A stretch of 64,000 nt of DNA from Escherichia coli (GTDB lineage Bacteria > Pseudomonadota > Gammaproteobacteria > Enterobacterales > Enterobacteriaceae), in the NCBI RefSeq assembly GCF_003334335.1, contig NZ_QOWQ01000021.1. One strand, written 5' to 3'. The notes below the pieces were generated by a model that saw only the letters and a list, made by a program, of their open reading frames with translations, ran no database searches and had not been told where the DNA came from. This document shows, piece by piece, positions 23,023 through 59,387 of the stretch. The translations under genes were made by a program, and so were the position numbers. Position 1 is the first letter of the stretch. Every line of letters begins with the position of its first letter.

Positions 23023-26375
<3,353 letters not shown>

Positions 26376-55181: not shown

Positions 55182-55472
55182 ATGTTTCAGAGAATTTACG
55201 ACCACATTACGTTTTTCACATCCGTCATGGTCACCGGTATAGGGGTTATGACGCTGAGCGAGAAGATGGCGCTGGCAGGACTGATTCTGGGGGCGCTTTC
55301 ACTGCTGCGCGGATGGATGCACAGAACACGTATGGAGCAGGCACAGGAGCGGCGCAATGAGCTTATTGCACGCATTGCCGACCAGATGCAGCACCGACCA
55401 CTAAAAGGCAGCGAGAAGCGCGCTCTGGAAGCCCTGAATGCAGACGGGGAATCACATGCCAGGACAGATTAA
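55182..55472 (+). CDS. Y: holin (P2 gpY-like)
   Basis: About 96 aa from internal ATG of track ORF 55170..55472; hydrophobic helices (FFTSVMVTGIGVMTL, ALAGLILGALSLL) then charged C-terminus. Confidence 0.7.
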   Translation: MFQRIYDHITFFTSVMVTGIGVMTLSEKMALAGLILGALSLLRGWMHRTRMEQAQERRNELIARIADQMQHRPLKGSEKRALEALNADGESHARTD

Positions 55473-55995
55473 ACGCTATGCCGTTGCCGCCATCGTGGCG
55501 CTGGGTTTTTCGCTGGCCCCCGGGGAGCTGAGAACCTCACAGGAGGCACAGGAAAAAATTGCCACCTGGGAAGAGTGTCGGGCATTCCCGTACAGGGATA
55601 TCGCTGGCGTGAAAACCGTGGGTTGTGGCTCAACGGGAAACGTCCCCGACCGCCACCATACCAAACAGGAAGTTGCCGGTCGATGGGTGAACGATTTACG
55701 ACGGGCGGAGAACTGCATCAATCAGAATTTCAATGGCCGCGACATGCCACAACGCCACTTTGAGGCAATGACGGATGCTGCCTTTAATCTGGGGTGCAAA
55801 GGCCTGATGTGGTTTAAGGGGCGTGACGGGAGGATGCACAGAACAACCATCTGGAAGTTCGCTCAGGGAAAGAACTGGAGCGCAATGTGCGGCAGGCTGA
55901 CGGATTTTGTGAACAGCGGCGGACGCTATTCACAGGGGCTGTTTAACCGGCGCAATGACTTCAGGAACTGGTGTATGAACGGAGTGAAGCAATGA
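55456..55995 (+). CDS. K: endolysin (lysozyme-like, possible SAR N-terminus)
   Basis: Track ORF 55438..55995; N-terminal hydrophobic stretch RYAVAAIVALGFSLAPG then lysozyme-like domain; directly after holin. Confidence 0.75.
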   Translation: MPGQIKRYAVAAIVALGFSLAPGELRTSQEAQEKIATWEECRAFPYRDIAGVKTVGCGSTGNVPDRHHTKQEVAGRWVNDLRRAENCINQNFNGRDMPQRHFEAMTDAAFNLGCKGLMWFKGRDGRMHRTTIWKFAQGKNWSAMCGRLTDFVNSGGRYSQGLFNRRNDFRNWCMNGVKQ

Positions 55996-56426
55996 AAACA
56001 CCTGCCGTGTTGCTCTGGTTTCTTGCCACCCTGTTGCTTTGTGGCCTGACAGGCTGGGAAGCATACCGCAAAGGGAAGGAAAGTCTCGGACGGGAACAGA
56101 TGATGGACATCATAGAGGACAACCGCGCCGCCATGCAGGAAGTTCGCCATGCATACACAGACTTTTCCAGGGTGATAAACGTGATCCGCATTCTGGACCA
56201 GCAACGGATTGCAGAAGGAGAGCAACGACGTGAAGAAATGCAAAAAGACGCGCAGGGTGACACGTGTGCCAGCGCTTATCCTCCCGCTGCTGTTACTGAG
56301 CGGTTGCAGCAACACGCAGCACACATTGAAAACCAGACTCGTTTACGAGCCGGTGCCGACAGTTCTGACAAGGCAGACCCCGGTTCCGGCACTGGAAATA
56401 CCCGTGACATGGTACAGGGTGACTGA
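55992..56426 (+). CDS. i-spanin (Rz/LysB-like)
   Basis: Start overlaps endolysin stop; single N-terminal TM (MKTPAVLLWFLATLLLCGLTGW) followed by charged helical periplasmic domain. Confidence 0.7.
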   Translation: MKTPAVLLWFLATLLLCGLTGWEAYRKGKESLGREQMMDIIEDNRAAMQEVRHAYTDFSRVINVIRILDQQRIAEGEQRREEMQKDAQGDTCASAYPPAAVTERLQQHAAHIENQTRLRAGADSSDKADPGSGTGNTRDMVQGD

Positions 56427-56541
56427 ATGGAGCGATCGGCTACTGGAAGCACTCGACACATGCAACGCAGACAAGGCTGCGATCGCCTGGCTGGATAAAC
56501 AAAGAGCAGAGCGGGCGCAAGATGCGCCCCATCAGGAGTAA
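56230..56541 (+). CDS. o-spanin (Rz1/LysC-like outer-membrane lipoprotein), alternate frame overlapping the i-spanin gene
   Basis: GTG preceded by aaggag; lipoprotein signal (V)KKCKKTRRVTRVPALILPLLLLSGC; starts inside the i-spanin gene in another frame and extends past it. Confidence 0.7.
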   Translation: MKKCKKTRRVTRVPALILPLLLLSGCSNTQHTLKTRLVYEPVPTVLTRQTPVPALEIPVTWYRVTEWSDRLLEALDTCNADKAAIAWLDKQRAERAQDAPHQE

Positions 56542-56544
56542 ACG

Positions 56545-58515
56545 ATGAGCAAAAAACACTTTGAACTGATTACTGCCACCAACCGCGCAGAATTCGCTGA
56601 AAAAGTTAACAAGCGATTACAGGAAGGCTGGGAACTTCTCGGTAATGCCGGTATTGCATCAGAGCCGGGAGTCCCCTGGTATCTCATGCAGGCTATGGTT
56701 TCAGGCAGTGATGACCAGGGAGGCACCATTATCACCCCGACATCCGACAGCGAACCGGAGTGGTATTACGTTGTGGTGAGCGCTGGTCAGTCCAACTCTA
56801 TGGCATACGGTGAGGGGTTACCTCTCCCGGACAGTTACGATAAACCCGATTCGCGCATTCGCCAGCTGGCACGCCGCAGCACCGTAACCCCGAGCGGAAA
56901 AGCCTGTGCCTATAACGACATCATTCTGGCGGATCACTGCCTGCATGACGTGCAGGATATGAGCCAGTACAACCACCCGAAAGCCGACCTGAACAAAGGT
57001 CAGTATGGCTGTGTGAGTCAGGGATTGCACATTGCGAAGCGCCTGCTGCCATTTATCCCGGCAAATGCGGGGATCCTTCTGGTCCCATGCAGCCGTGGCG
57101 GTTCCGGCTTTACAACCGGTGATGCGGGGCAATTCAGCGAGATCGGCGGCGCAACTGAAAAATCCTGCCGCTGGGGAACGAACACGCCGCTGTACAAGGA
57201 TTTAATCAGCCGCACAAAAGCAGCGCTGGCGAAAAATCCGAAAAACGTCCTGCTGGCCGTCTGCTGGACACAGGGCGAGGCAGATCTTGAGAAAGAACAA
57301 AACGCCGCACAGCATAAAGATCTTTTCACAGCCATGGTGAAGCAGTTCCGGGCTGACCTGGCCGATGTTGCGAAGCAGTGCAACCAGGGCAACCCTGAAA
57401 GCGTGCCGTGGATTTGTGGAGATACCACCTACCACTGGAAAAAAACCTACGAAGCACAGTACGCAACCGTGTATGGCGGATACAAAAACAGCACTGAGAA
57501 GAATATTGTTTTTGTGCCTTTTGTTACGGATGAGTACGGGAAAAACACCCCAACAAACGAGCCGACAGAAGATCCGGATATTGCGGAAGCGGGTTATTAC
57601 GGTGCCGCATCCCGCAGTAGCGGAAACTGGGTAAGCCATCTGCGTGGAACGCACTTCAGCTCATGGGCCCGCCGGGGCATTATTGCCGATCGCATGGCGT
57701 CAGCAATCCTGCTTAACGTCGGCCGCACGCTGCCATTTATTGCGGGTACAGAGCCGGAACGCGTGGCAAAACCATCACAGGATGCACCGGGCGGCATCAG
57801 TAAGCCATCTTCACCGGAAGCAGAACAACCGGCAGTCAGACCGGGGCCGGTCACGCTCATGAGTCTGCTGGCATCATCTCCTGAACTGGAAAGCCAGGGC
57901 TGGACGCTGAGCGAAGGCAAAAACGGGGCCAACACACCAAAACAACTGAAAGACACGCTGATCGGTGATGAGGAAGCAACAGGGAAAAAAGCCCTGAAAC
58001 TGACCAAACAGGAAGGCAATACCTGGTATCTGGAGCATAAGGCCGGTAATGGTGCTGACCTTCTGAAAAATGGCGGGACTGTAAGTTGCCGATTCAAAAT
58101 CGAGGGTGAGCTGAAAAAAGACCAGTACGCAATGGCGATGTACTGGAAAACATCAGCATTACCGCAGGATGTGAAATTACTGGGGGCAGATCCAAATAAT
58201 TTATTGCTCTCATTCTTTCTTCAGACAGACAGCGCAAACCTGAATCTGATGTATCACAAAACGCCAAACGAACAACTGGGAACCTTTGGTCAGTTCAATA
58301 ACAACTGGCACACCATAGCGTTTCGTTTTGCGGGAAACAACAGCACCCAGGTAACACCGGTTCTGGATGGCGTGGACGGAAAACCGTTCATGCTTTCCAC
58401 ATCAAAAGCCGATGTTACCAACGACACGTTACGCGTGACCGATATCACGTATCGGCCGACCTATACCGTACTGATTGACAGCCTGAGCGTTGTCGTAAAT
58501 CAGCCACCGGCATAA
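56545..58515 (+). CDS. NanS-p-like prophage sialate O-acetylesterase (DUF1737 + SGNH hydrolase + C-terminal domain)
   Basis: 656 aa; N-terminal MSKKHFELITATNRAEFAEKVNKRLQEGWELLG (DUF1737-like), SGNH block VVVSAGQSNSMAYGEG, overall size as in prophage NanS-p esterases. Confidence 0.75.
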   Translation: MSKKHFELITATNRAEFAEKVNKRLQEGWELLGNAGIASEPGVPWYLMQAMVSGSDDQGGTIITPTSDSEPEWYYVVVSAGQSNSMAYGEGLPLPDSYDKPDSRIRQLARRSTVTPSGKACAYNDIILADHCLHDVQDMSQYNHPKADLNKGQYGCVSQGLHIAKRLLPFIPANAGILLVPCSRGGSGFTTGDAGQFSEIGGATEKSCRWGTNTPLYKDLISRTKAALAKNPKNVLLAVCWTQGEADLEKEQNAAQHKDLFTAMVKQFRADLADVAKQCNQGNPESVPWICGDTTYHWKKTYEAQYATVYGGYKNSTEKNIVFVPFVTDEYGKNTPTNEPTEDPDIAEAGYYGAASRSSGNWVSHLRGTHFSSWARRGIIADRMASAILLNVGRTLPFIAGTEPERVAKPSQDAPGGISKPSSPEAEQPAVRPGPVTLMSLLASSPELESQGWTLSEGKNGANTPKQLKDTLIGDEEATGKKALKLTKQEGNTWYLEHKAGNGADLLKNGGTVSCRFKIEGELKKDQYAMAMYWKTSALPQDVKLLGADPNNLLLSFFLQTDSANLNLMYHKTPNEQLGTFGQFNNNWHTIAFRFAGNNSTQVTPVLDGVDGKPFMLSTSKADVTNDTLRVTDITYRPTYTVLIDSLSVVVNQPPA

Positions 58516-58579
58516 CAATGCTTCCCAGCCATCCGGCGGGGAAGCTCGCTGACAACCGGGAAAATAAAAGGAGCAAGCC

Positions 58580-58744
58580 ATGGGATTTATTCATCAGATA
58601 ATGTTGTATTTCAGTACCGCCGTATCCCTTCTGTATCTGATCTCAGGGGGATATAAAGCCGTCCGCAATTTCTGGAACAAAAAGATAGATGAAGCAGCCG
58701 CCAGGAAATCAGCTGGCGGAGCGGTCAACGGGGTATTGCCATAA
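58580..58744 (+). CDS. small hydrophobic protein, about 54 aa
   Basis: ATG preceded by aaggag; MGFIHQIMLYFSTAVSLLYLISGGYKAVRNFWNKKIDEAAARKSAGGAVNGVLP; found by manual translation. Confidence 0.45.
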   Translation: MGFIHQIMLYFSTAVSLLYLISGGYKAVRNFWNKKIDEAAARKSAGGAVNGVLP

Positions 58745-58796
58745 CAACAGGCACAGCGCATCAGAACGGCACCACTGTCCACAGCAAAAGAAACAA

Positions 58797-58820
58797 AAAA
58801 CCCTCCGGTATACGGAGGGT
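58797..58820. other. stable hairpin in the esterase-R intergenic region
   Basis: ccctccg gtatac ggaggg, preceded by an A-run but not followed by a T-run on the + strand. Confidence 0.4.
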
Positions 58821-58916
58821 GCAAGAGGGGAAAGGTGAGCAAGAAAGAACCCGAATTAAAAGCCATTTAATTTTGAGATTTTTAATTGCCACACGCAACA
58901 CGTTCTACGGTGTTTT

Positions 58917-59387
58917 ATGCTGAAACTGAATTCATTACGCGAAGCTCTGACCAGCAACTGCCGGTGGTGTAAGGCCAGCCCGGAAAAATTCACGGTATTC
59001 ATTGAATCGGGTGGCATTGAAACCACCGGTGAATCCCCCTCATTCCTGTACCGCTACAACCTGGTGTTGTTCGTCATGGACTTCACAGAAAGTATCGACA
59101 ACATCATGCTGCCGGTCATGGCGTGGCTGTACAGGAATCAGCCGGATCTTCTTCTCAATCCGGAGAAGAACAAAAGCATCAAATTTTCGACGGCCATCAA
59201 CGATGACGACAGTGCCGATATCCTGCTGGAAATCCCGGTATGGGAGCGCGTGATTGTGCGCCGTAATGACGACGGCACGGTGACGGCAGAGCACATCGGT
59301 GAGCCCCCGATAAGCCGGGCACTGGAAGCATGGCGCGTAGTGTTTGAAGACATGACGTGGCGAACCGGAACGGAGACCAGCACATGA
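58917..59387 (+). CDS. R: tail completion protein (P2 gpR family)
   Basis: 156 aa in the conserved position before S. Confidence 0.75.
   Translation: MLKLNSLREALTSNCRWCKASPEKFTVFIESGGIETTGESPSFLYRYNLVLFVMDFTESIDNIMLPVMAWLYRNQPDLLLNPEKNKSIKFSTAINDDDSADILLEIPVWERVIVRRNDDGTVTAEHIGEPPISRALEAWRVVFEDMTWRTGTETST

What the first reader, a model, noticed from the sequence alone, without database searches (positions are those of the whole stretch)
58580..58744. Unannotated small hydrophobic ORF immediately downstream of the esterase
Seen in sequence: a 54-codon ORF with a strong aaggag SD encodes a peptide with one hydrophobic helix (IMLYFSTAVSLLYLISGG). It is below the ORF-track cutoff and lies between the esterase and a stable hairpin. 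It could be a small membrane partner travelling with the esterase cargo or a small toxin-like peptide.
Basis: seen in the sequence. Interest (0 to 1): 0.3.

Follow-up and report, generated by a model that had tools for sequence, protein, structure and literature searches.

The report
Known DUF1378 phage membrane peptide
The small ORF is a real, conserved and already catalogued phage gene (DUF1378 family, function untested) for a one-helix membrane peptide; across phages it keeps company with the cell-lysis genes more consistently than with the esterase, so it is probably a minor helper in host lysis.

Summary
The ORF at 58580-58744 (+) is there as described: ATG, AAGGAG 6 nt upstream, 54 codons, one hydrophobic helix. 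It is not unannotated. RefSeq calls the identical protein WP_001537165.1, "DUF1378 family protein". It matches Pfam PF07125 (E 6e-21) and phrog_494, and is under purifying selection (median dN/dS 0.15, against 1.2 and 1.6 in the shifted frames).

The window carries a P2-like prophage ordered holin, SAR-type endolysin, LysB, LysC, NanS-p-like esterase, DUF1378, tail genes R and S.

In Stx and other lambdoid phages the order is esterase, DUF1378, (DUF826), holin S, R, Rz. The link is not obligate in either direction:
- Phage JLK-2012 has the esterase without DUF1378.
- A sister P2-like prophage has an intact esterase and a frameshifted DUF1378.
- About 17 esterase-free lineages place DUF1378 directly after, often overlapping, the spanin or endolysin gene.

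Best reading (confidence about 0.5): a late-expressed N-out/C-in inner-membrane accessory of the lysis cassette. It resembles Mu releasin gp25 and LambdaSo Lcc6 in architecture, but shows no detectable homology to gp25. I found no support for a toxin role. No function has been tested experimentally. The object is already known; interest is modest.

The parts
55182..55472 (+). Holin of the prophage lysis cassette (96 aa, two hydrophobic segments)
   Evidence: phrog_1350 'holin', E 1.7e-24. RefSeq CDS H4P46_RS16835 in the identical prophage.
55456..55995 (+). Endolysin (lysozyme) with a SAR-like N-terminus, MPGQIKRYAVAAIVALGFSLAPG
   Evidence: phrog_7 'endolysin', E 3.9e-47. The N-terminal weakly hydrophobic Ala/Gly-rich segment follows K6 and R7. 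SAR status is inferred from the sequence and was not tested.
55992..56426 (+). LysB / Rz-like i-spanin
   Evidence: phrog_214 'Rz-like spanin', E 3.8e-25.
56326..56541 (+). LysC / Rz1-like o-spanin
   Evidence: phrog_3001, E 1.7e-16. RefSeq annotates it as 'Rz1-like lysis system protein LysC'.
56545..58515 (+). NanS-p-like SASA/DUF6645 carbohydrate esterase (656 aa); starts 3 nt after the lysC stop
   Evidence: 55% identical over its full length to 933W L0105. phrog_143, E 1e-296. RefSeq annotates it as 'DUF6645 domain-containing protein'.
58520..58545 (+). Hairpin just after the esterase stop (GCTTCCC...GGGAAGC)
   Evidence: Fold; as a whole the segment folds no better than its shuffles (z -0.6). 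Most other esterase-DUF1378 loci have an A-run plus G+C hairpin at this position.
58568..58573 (+). Shine-Dalgarno AAGGAG, 6 nt before the ATG
   Evidence: Read directly from the sequence. GGAG/GGTAAGG/GGGAGG-type sites precede the start in most homologues.
58580..58744 (+). DUF1378 family gene: 54-aa single-pass membrane peptide (TM about residues 5-24; conserved GG[YW]xx[IV]R junction; basic helical tail)
   Evidence: Pfam PF07125, E 6e-21. phrog_494. RefSeq WP_001537165.1. Median dN/dS 0.15. Topology from charge distribution. AF2 gives one helix, residues 3-46, at pLDDT 64.
58795..58820 (.). A-run plus 8-bp G+C hairpin (ACCCTCCG-GTATA-CGGAGGGT); terminator-like on the minus strand only
   Evidence: The terminator scan reports it on the minus strand with the tail TTTTTTGTTTC. 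Fold of the region has z -2.2 on the + strand. It is absent from the shorter intergenic region of the SCU-172 relative.
58917..59387 (+). P2-type tail completion gene R, the next gene of the late operon
   Evidence: RefSeq annotates it as 'phage tail protein', followed by the virion morphogenesis protein and baseplate V, W, J and I.

Best explanation
The ORF is a genuine gene of the DUF1378 (PF07125 / phrog_494) family. It encodes a 54-residue bitopic inner-membrane protein. A few N-terminal residues face the periplasm, there is one transmembrane helix, and a short basic helical tail lies in the cytoplasm (N-out/C-in).

It has no promoter of its own. It lies inside the P2-type late operon between the lysis genes plus esterase and tail gene R. 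It should therefore be made late in the lytic cycle, together with holin, endolysin, spanins and esterase.

Across the family, the usual neighbour of esterase-free members is the lysis cassette, and DUF1378 is typically its last gene, just after or overlapping the spanin gene. The most likely role is therefore an accessory lysis factor acting in the cytoplasmic membrane. It might tune holin triggering or lysis timing, or assist the membrane steps of endolysin or spanin action.

In one enterobacterial branch the nanS-p-type esterase gene sits immediately upstream. In the window the peptide is closer to esterase-linked alleles than to the esterase-free ones compared, which suggests, but does not prove, that the esterase-DUF1378 pair arrived in this P2-like prophage as a unit.

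Shown: existence, family membership, purifying selection, gene order, and independence from the esterase.
Inferred: topology, late expression, and the role in lysis.
Not known: the molecular mechanism.
For: **Real gene and family member**
- Pfam PF07125, E 6e-21; phrog_494, E 2e-23.
- RefSeq WP_001537165.1.
- 103 clusters at 90% identity, all carrying PF07125.
- At least 1016 of 5426 complete E. coli genomes carry DUF1378 genes.
- Median dN/dS 0.15 in frame, against more than 1 out of frame.

**Topology**
- There are 0 K/R residues before the TM and 4-5 K/R in the 15 residues after it, in every member examined.
- AF2 models a single helix.

**Late-operon position**
- No promoter-like site lies near the gene, and the downstream hairpin has no + strand T-run.

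**Lysis-cassette linkage without an esterase**
- Stenotrophomonas phage BUCT709: lysozyme, Rz-like gene, DUF1378.
- L014 and L018: Muramidase, DUF7940 holin, Phage_lysis, DUF1378.
- L017: holin, SAR lysozyme, DUF2570, LysC, DUF1378.
- L103 and L105-107: Q, holin, lysozyme, DUF7940, i-spanin, DUF1378.
- L108: holin, lysozyme, DUF1378.
- L008, L009 and L016.
- All seven loci from the scan of species genomes: LYS/RZ then DUF1378.
- ATGA-type overlaps with the upstream gene in several of these.

**Independence from the esterase**.

**Precedent for small N-out/C-in membrane proteins needed for lysis**
- Mu gp25 releasin (PMC9239132).
- LambdaSo Lcc6: 65 aa, TM at residues 5-22 (bioRxiv 10.1101/2024.01.23.576932).
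Against: - No experiment on any DUF1378 protein was found.
- Adjacency is not function.
- One lineage (L094-L096) has DUF1378 after the tail-fibre and tail-fibre-assembly genes, next to a Dam methylase and not in a visible lysis cassette.
- In Stx phages the gene lies upstream of the holin rather than after the spanins, and is separated from the holin by DUF826 in many of them.
- The partner cassettes are heterogeneous. Some have a pinholin-like holin with a SAR endolysin; others have a class I holin with a soluble lysozyme. No single molecular partner can be named.
- There is no detectable homology to releasin.
- The SCU-172 pseudogene shows the gene can decay in a prophage.
Confidence: 0.5

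Rival explanations
1. Dedicated partner of the esterase: the peptide anchors, exports, activates or otherwise serves NanS-p, and the two genes form one functional unit.
For: - DUF1378 directly follows the esterase in most loci sampled, on both lambdoid and P2-like backbones.
- The two window proteins are about equally diverged from their 933W counterparts (55% and 50%).
- Record counts are similar: 347 with the esterase, 309 with DUF1378.
- The window peptide is closer to esterase-linked alleles (52-65% identity) than to esterase-free ones (27-44%).
Against: - Esterase without DUF1378 in phage JLK-2012.
- Intact esterase with a frameshifted DUF1378 in SCU-172.
- DUF1378 retained next to an esterase that has lost its SASA domain.
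- About 17 esterase-free lineages.
- The predicted topology leaves almost nothing in the periplasm to contact a released enzyme.
Confidence: 0.12
2. Lysogen-benefit membrane moron unrelated to lysis, for example a superinfection-exclusion or injection-blocking inner-membrane peptide that merely tends to sit at operon ends.
For: - The protein is a small single-pass inner-membrane protein.
- The gene sits at module boundaries: end of the lysis cassette, before the terminase genes, and after the tail-fibre genes in L094-96.
- It sits next to other cargo such as the esterase, stx and methylases.
- Up to 7 copies occur per E. coli genome.
Against: - No promoter-like site precedes it in the window.
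- 4-nt overlaps with spanin genes imply co-translation with late genes, not prophage-state expression.
- No PADLOC match.
Confidence: 0.2
3. Small membrane toxin (type I toxin-like or holin-like peptide) that kills or depolarises the cell by itself.
For: The peptide is short and hydrophobic with a basic tail, and it lies beside lysis genes.
Against: - No holin PHROG or Pfam match; the only hits are DUF1378 and phrog_494.
- The cassette already has a holin.
- There is no promoter of its own and no evident antisense-RNA arrangement; the only nearby terminator-like element lies 55 nt beyond the stop.
- The architecturally similar Lcc6 and gp25 are harmless when expressed alone.
Confidence: 0.05
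4. Chance ORF that is not translated.
For: ORFs of this length are frequent by chance in the region.
Against: - Pfam match at E 6e-21.
- Frame-specific purifying selection.
- Conserved Shine-Dalgarno site.
- Family present in more than 1000 E. coli genomes.
Confidence: 0.02

Closest known systems
DUF1378 (Pfam PF07125; phrog_494), e.g. the ORF at 25261-25422 of phage 933W between L0105 (nanS-p) and S
   Same: - Same family by profile.
- 50% identity to the 933W copy over all 54 residues.
- Same position directly after a NanS-p-type esterase.
- Same TM plus GG[YW]xx[IV]R core.
   Different: - The backbone is a P2-like myovirus prophage rather than a lambdoid one.
- The gene lies after the spanins plus esterase and before tail gene R, instead of before the holin.
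- There is no DUF826 neighbour.
- This allele is rare: 14 of 5426 complete E. coli genomes.
Phage Mu gp25 'releasin' (DUF2730, PF10805)
   Same: - N-terminal TM with only a few periplasmic residues, N-out/C-in topology, and a basic motif at the TM-cytoplasm junction.
- Encoded a few genes downstream of the endolysin and spanins on the late transcript.
- The window endolysin is SAR-like with basic residues at positions 6 and 7.
   Different: - No detectable homology (hhalign probability 0.2%; Pfam reports only DUF1378).
- The tail is about 30 residues and basic, not 73 residues and acidic.
- DUF1378 also accompanies soluble lysozymes with class I holins.
- The window cassette has its own holin, whereas Mu has none.
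Shewanella phage LambdaSo Lcc6 (SO_4795)
   Same: - A 65-aa protein with a TM at residues 5-22 and a cytoplasmic tail.
[quoted passage not shown]
- Harmless when expressed alone.
- This is the same architecture and size class as DUF1378.
   Different: - Its gene lies far from the lysis cassette, next to xis.
- No Shewanella protein or locus appeared in three family searches, so homology is unsupported.

Membership tests
DUF1378 (PF07125 / phrog_494) | Significant match to the family profile over most of its length | tested here: met
   Pfam: 74.8 bits, E 6e-21, model positions 1-45 of 59. phrog_494: E 2.4e-23, positions 1-50 of 59.
DUF1378 (PF07125 / phrog_494) | Size of about 45-90 aa, with an N-terminal hydrophobic helix ending in the conserved GG[YW]xx[IV]R motif | tested here: met
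   The alignments show this. L9 and G24 are invariant in alignment A4, and G23 and R29 are nearly invariant; all are present in the window peptide.
DUF1378 (PF07125 / phrog_494) | Encoded in tailed-phage or prophage late regions of Enterobacterales | tested here: met
   The window carries a P2-like prophage. Family members occur in E. coli, Klebsiella, Pantoea, Kosakonia, Erwinia and others.
Releasin (Mu gp25, DUF2730) | Sequence or profile membership in DUF2730 | tested here: not met
   hhalign of alignment A4 against gp25 gave probability 0.2%. The Pfam scan reports only DUF1378.
Releasin (Mu gp25, DUF2730) | [quoted passage not shown] | tested here: met
   The charge distribution fits N-out/C-in. 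The gene is the fourth one after the endolysin. Topology is predicted, not measured.
Releasin (Mu gp25, DUF2730) | Required for release of a SAR endolysin from the membrane | not testable with these tools
   This needs genetics. Relatives also occur with soluble lysozymes, which argues against a SAR-specific role for the family as a whole.
Lcc6-like lysis factor (LambdaSo) | Sequence similarity to SO_4795 | not testable with these tools
   The sequence is not held. No Shewanella member appeared.
Holin | Match to a holin family, and being the only candidate membrane-permeabilising protein of the cassette | tested here: not met
   No holin PHROG or Pfam hit. A phrog_1350 holin is already present at 55182-55472.
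Type I toxin-antitoxin peptide | Own promoter and an overlapping antisense RNA | tested here: not met
   No promoter-like site lies near the ORF on either strand; the only one is at 58171-58200 (+), inside the esterase gene. Relatives overlap the spanin stop codon.
Known anti-phage defence proteins (PADLOC) | Match to any PADLOC model | tested here: not met
   0 families matched, for both the peptide and the esterase.

The most novel reading that the evidence does not exclude
DUF1378 proteins are an unrecognised, widespread accessory component of enterobacterial phage lysis cassettes. They would be functionally analogous to LambdaSo Lcc6 or Mu releasin but evolutionarily distinct. In Stx phages they would help set the time of lysis, and so the release of Shiga toxin and NanS-p.
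Probability: 0.3. Interest if true: 0.6.

Novelty: already known. Interest (0 to 1): 0.25.

Why it matters
As an object, this is an ordinary, already annotated member of a domain-of-unknown-function family.

The useful by-product is a testable hypothesis. DUF1378 genes are present in about one in five complete E. coli genomes and in most Stx phages, and they behave in genome context like a terminal gene of lysis cassettes.

If they modulate lysis, they would affect the timing and amount of Shiga toxin and esterase release. They would also add a further example to the recently opened class of small membrane lysis accessories (Mu releasin, LambdaSo Lcc6).

Tried and rejected
- **K-12 YbcW.** I recalled YbcW as a DUF1378 protein. 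The alignment shows it is unrelated (20% identity, no shared motif), so I dropped it.
- **NCBIfam.** The only hit was a weak, sub-threshold match to MnmH (16.7 bits against a cut-off of 361). I treat it as chance.
- **PDB sequence search.** The only hits were the TM region of translocon-associated protein gamma at E about 0.005. I treat this as hydrophobic-helix similarity.
- **AlphaFold.** It gave one low-confidence helix (pLDDT 64). That is too featureless for a fold search, so none was run.
- **PADLOC.** No match.
- **Literature.** Only one paper mentions DUF1378 in this context, and it merely notes that ORFs with DUF826 or DUF1378 domains lie between nanS-p and S (PMC10462455). Searches for PF07125, L0106, phrog_494, Z1467 and ECs1208 gave nothing relevant.
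- **Lcc6 homology.** The sequence is not in the preprint text and no supplements are held. A scan of 100,044 species genomes with the family motif returned only Enterobacterales.
- **SAR-endolysin-specific (releasin-like) role for the whole family.** I rejected this as a general rule, because several cassettes pair DUF1378 with a class I holin and a soluble lysozyme.
- **The downstream hairpin as this gene's terminator.** I rejected this, because the T-run is on the opposite strand.

Full report
**1. The observation**

The sequence shows an ATG at 58580 and a TAA ending at 58744, which makes 54 codons. AAGGAG lies at 58568-58573. The product is MGFIHQIMLYFSTAVSLLYLISGGYKAVRNFWNKKIDEAAARKSAGGAVNGVLP.

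It has one hydrophobic segment. No Lys or Arg precedes that segment, and four lie in the 15 residues after it. The ORF starts 64 nt after the stop of a 656-aa esterase gene (56545-58515). An 8-bp G+C hairpin lies at 58800-58820, starting 55 nt after the ORF.

An ORF of this length is not remarkable by itself. One search lists dozens of similar size in 5 kb, most of them antisense or out of frame.

**2. It is a real gene, and an annotated one**

- The 551 bases around it are 99.8-100% identical in 14 of 5426 complete E. coli genomes. NCBI's pipeline calls exactly this ORF 'DUF1378 family protein', WP_001537165.1.
- The peptide matches Pfam PF07125 (E 6e-21) and phrog_494 (E 2e-23, function unknown).
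- I made a codon alignment of 43 distinct homologous ORFs taken from fetched loci. Median dN/dS was 0.15 over 162 moderately diverged pairs. The same nucleotide alignment read in the two other frames gave 1.2 and 1.6.
- Against Stx-phage homologues, synonymous sites are saturated (pS 0.65-0.88) while pN is 0.2-0.3.

**3. Surroundings**

The window carries a P2-like prophage. The matching region of E. coli G1/2 is annotated with an integrase, a replication endonuclease, portal, terminase, GPO scaffold and P2-family capsid. These are followed by gpM, head completion, tail protein X, the lysis genes, R, S, V, W, J, I and the tail fibre.

PHROGs type the lysis genes as follows:

| Coordinates | Gene |
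|---|---|
| 55182-55472 | holin, phrog_1350 |
| 55456-55995 | endolysin, phrog_7 |
| 55992-56426 | Rz-like i-spanin (LysB) |
| 56326-56541 | o-spanin (LysC) |

The endolysin starts MPGQIKRYAVAAIVALGFSLAPG. That is the pattern of a signal-anchor-release (SAR) domain; this is an inference from the sequence.

The esterase starts 3 nt after the lysC stop and is 55% identical to 933W L0105/NanS-p. No sigma-70-like site lies near the small ORF. The only one in 4.5 kb is at 58171-58200, inside the esterase gene, and shuffled sequence gives more such sites.

The downstream hairpin has its T-run on the minus strand and only an A-run on the + side. Nothing predicted would therefore stop + strand transcription from running on into R and S. 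Late co-expression with the lysis genes is inferred from this.

**4. Is it linked to the esterase?**

Yes as linkage; no as an obligate pairing.

Evidence for linkage:
- tblastn finds the peptide in 309 phage records, nearly all Stx or other lambdoid E. coli and Shigella phages.
- The esterase is found in 347 phage records.
- In 933W, phiSTEC1589 and PhiR12_4 the order is (stx), esterase, DUF1378, (DUF826), S, R, Rz.
- A published survey of Stx2a phages mentions ORFs with DUF826 or DUF1378 domains between nanS-p and S (PMC10462455).
- I tallied 98 loci with reference proteins. Esterase-DUF1378 adjacency dominates, and 6 loci have the window's arrangement: holin, lysozyme, Rz, esterase, DUF1378, tail R.

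Evidence against an obligate pairing:
- Phage JLK-2012 has the esterase followed directly by the holin.
- L039 keeps DUF1378 after an esterase that has lost its catalytic domain.
- In the related P2-like prophage of E. coli SCU-172 the esterase is intact, but the DUF1378 gene is broken by a deletion and frameshift.

**5. What the rest of the family says**

The family is small and essentially confined to Enterobacterales:
- 37 clusters at 50% identity among 1.84 billion representatives.
- 103 clusters at 90% identity, all flagged PF07125.
- Seven loci in a motif scan of 100,044 species genomes, all Enterobacterales.

Members without an esterase sit in lysis cassettes, usually as the last gene:

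| Locus or loci | Gene order |
|---|---|
| Phage BUCT709 and four viral contigs | lysozyme, Rz-like, DUF1378 |
| L014, L018 | Muramidase, DUF7940 holin, Phage_lysis, DUF1378 |
| L017 | holin, SAR lysozyme, DUF2570, LysC, DUF1378 |
| L103, L105-107 | Q, holin, lysozyme, DUF7940, i-spanin, DUF1378 |
| L108 | holin, lysozyme, DUF1378 |
| L009 | Rz, DUF1378, then terminase |
| L008 | endolysin fragment, DUF1378, i-spanin |
| L109-L115 | lysozyme and/or Rz, then DUF1378 |

Several of these starts overlap the upstream stop (ATGA), which is the usual mark of translational coupling.

That makes about 17 esterase-free lineages beside lysis genes. One lineage (L094-L096) differs: there the gene follows the tail-fibre and tail-fibre-assembly genes and precedes a Dam methylase.

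The partner cassettes are of both kinds. Some have a pinholin-like holin with a SAR endolysin (window, 933W, BUCT709, L017, L108). Others have a class I holin with a soluble lysozyme (L103, L105).

**6. Mechanism**

The conserved core is a transmembrane helix ending in [SA]GG[YW]xx[IV]R, followed by a basic stretch. In longer members this stretch becomes an Ala/Lys/Glu-rich helix with a second motif, E-I-E-A-A-V-Q-x-R.

The charge distribution predicts N-out/C-in. AlphaFold gives a single helix at low confidence.

Two small N-out/C-in proteins are known to be needed for lysis:
- Mu gp25 releasin frees a SAR endolysin (PMC9239132).
- LambdaSo Lcc6 (65 aa, TM at residues 5-22) acts at the level of the pinholin (bioRxiv 10.1101/2024.01.23.576932).

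DUF1378 resembles both in architecture, and resembles gp25 in gene position. It is not homologous to gp25 (hhalign probability 0.2%). I could not compare it with Lcc6 because that sequence is not held; no Shewanella member turned up in any family search.

I therefore commit to 'accessory factor of the lysis cassette acting in the inner membrane' at about 0.5. I cannot say whether its target is the holin, the endolysin anchor or the i-spanin. A SAR-specific releasin role does not fit the family as a whole.

**7. How the pair reached the P2-like prophage**

- The window peptide is 52-65% identical to esterase-linked alleles and 27-44% identical to esterase-free ones. This favours import of esterase plus DUF1378 as a unit.
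- Between the window and its SCU-172 relative, holin and lysozyme are 94% identical and LysB is 73% identical. The esterases are only 51% identical, which is as far apart as either is from the 933W esterase. The cargo segment has therefore been exchanged or is evolving much faster than its flanks.

**8. Verdict**

The gene is real, but it is already catalogued. The esterase-partner idea holds only as linkage, and the toxin idea has no support.

The object is already known. Interest is modest and rests on the lysis-cassette association, which is directly testable in Stx phages.

Noticed in passing
window 58795-58820; L003, L007, L010 and about 25 other loci, just after the esterase stop: Nearly every esterase-DUF1378 locus has an A-run followed by a strong G+C hairpin immediately 3' of the esterase stop. 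The stem sequences differ between lineages. The shape is that of an intrinsic terminator for the opposite strand. In the window this type of element lies after DUF1378 instead, and a different hairpin without an A-run (58520-58545) follows the esterase. Its function is unknown.
   Followed up: partly
window 56545-58515 versus L007 2774-4711 (E. coli SCU-172): Two closely related P2-like prophages (holin and lysozyme 94% identical, tail gene R 88% at the DNA level) carry esterases that are only 51% identical. The first 50 or so residues remain visibly similar. This looks like replacement of the cargo cassette by recombination inside the gene.
   Followed up: partly
L007 4829-4974 (E. coli SCU-172): The DUF1378 gene of the sister prophage is a pseudogene. 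A deletion of about 12 nt plus a frameshift leaves MNLFQQSMLYFSAAVCVIWV*, with the C-terminal part readable in another frame. RefSeq annotates nothing there.
   Followed up: yes
L039 4970-5853: A lambdoid prophage keeps only the N-terminal 77 aa and the C-terminal DUF6645 part of the esterase, so the SASA catalytic domain is deleted. An intact DUF1378 gene still lies downstream.
   Followed up: partly
window 55182-56541: The P2-like lysis cassette has a two-TM phrog_1350 holin and a SAR-like endolysin with K6 and R7. There is no gene between the endolysin and LysB, which is where I recall P2 carrying lysA; that recollection was not checked here.
   Followed up: partly
window 58594-58866 (minus strand): A 90-aa antisense ORF overlaps the DUF1378 gene and the hairpin. 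Reading the + strand of the DUF1378 region in either shifted frame gave dN/dS above 1, but the minus-strand frame itself was not analysed. No homologue was sought. It is probably spurious.
   Followed up: partly
L010-L013 and about 34 viral contigs: A very common E. coli arrangement is resolvase, 691-aa esterase, DUF1378, DUF826, a 66-aa ORF, then a Mom-like gene. None of the reference holin, endolysin or spanin proteins matched downstream. It may be a degraded prophage end that retains only the cargo block.
   Followed up: no
A5 alignment (P0137, P0032, P0033 and others): Long DUF1378 members (80-91 aa; Klebsiella, Kosakonia, Pantoea) share a second conserved cytoplasmic motif, A-K-A-D-E-I-E-A-A-V-Q-E-R-L-K-K-L-Q. 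The 54-aa window peptide lacks it.
   Followed up: no
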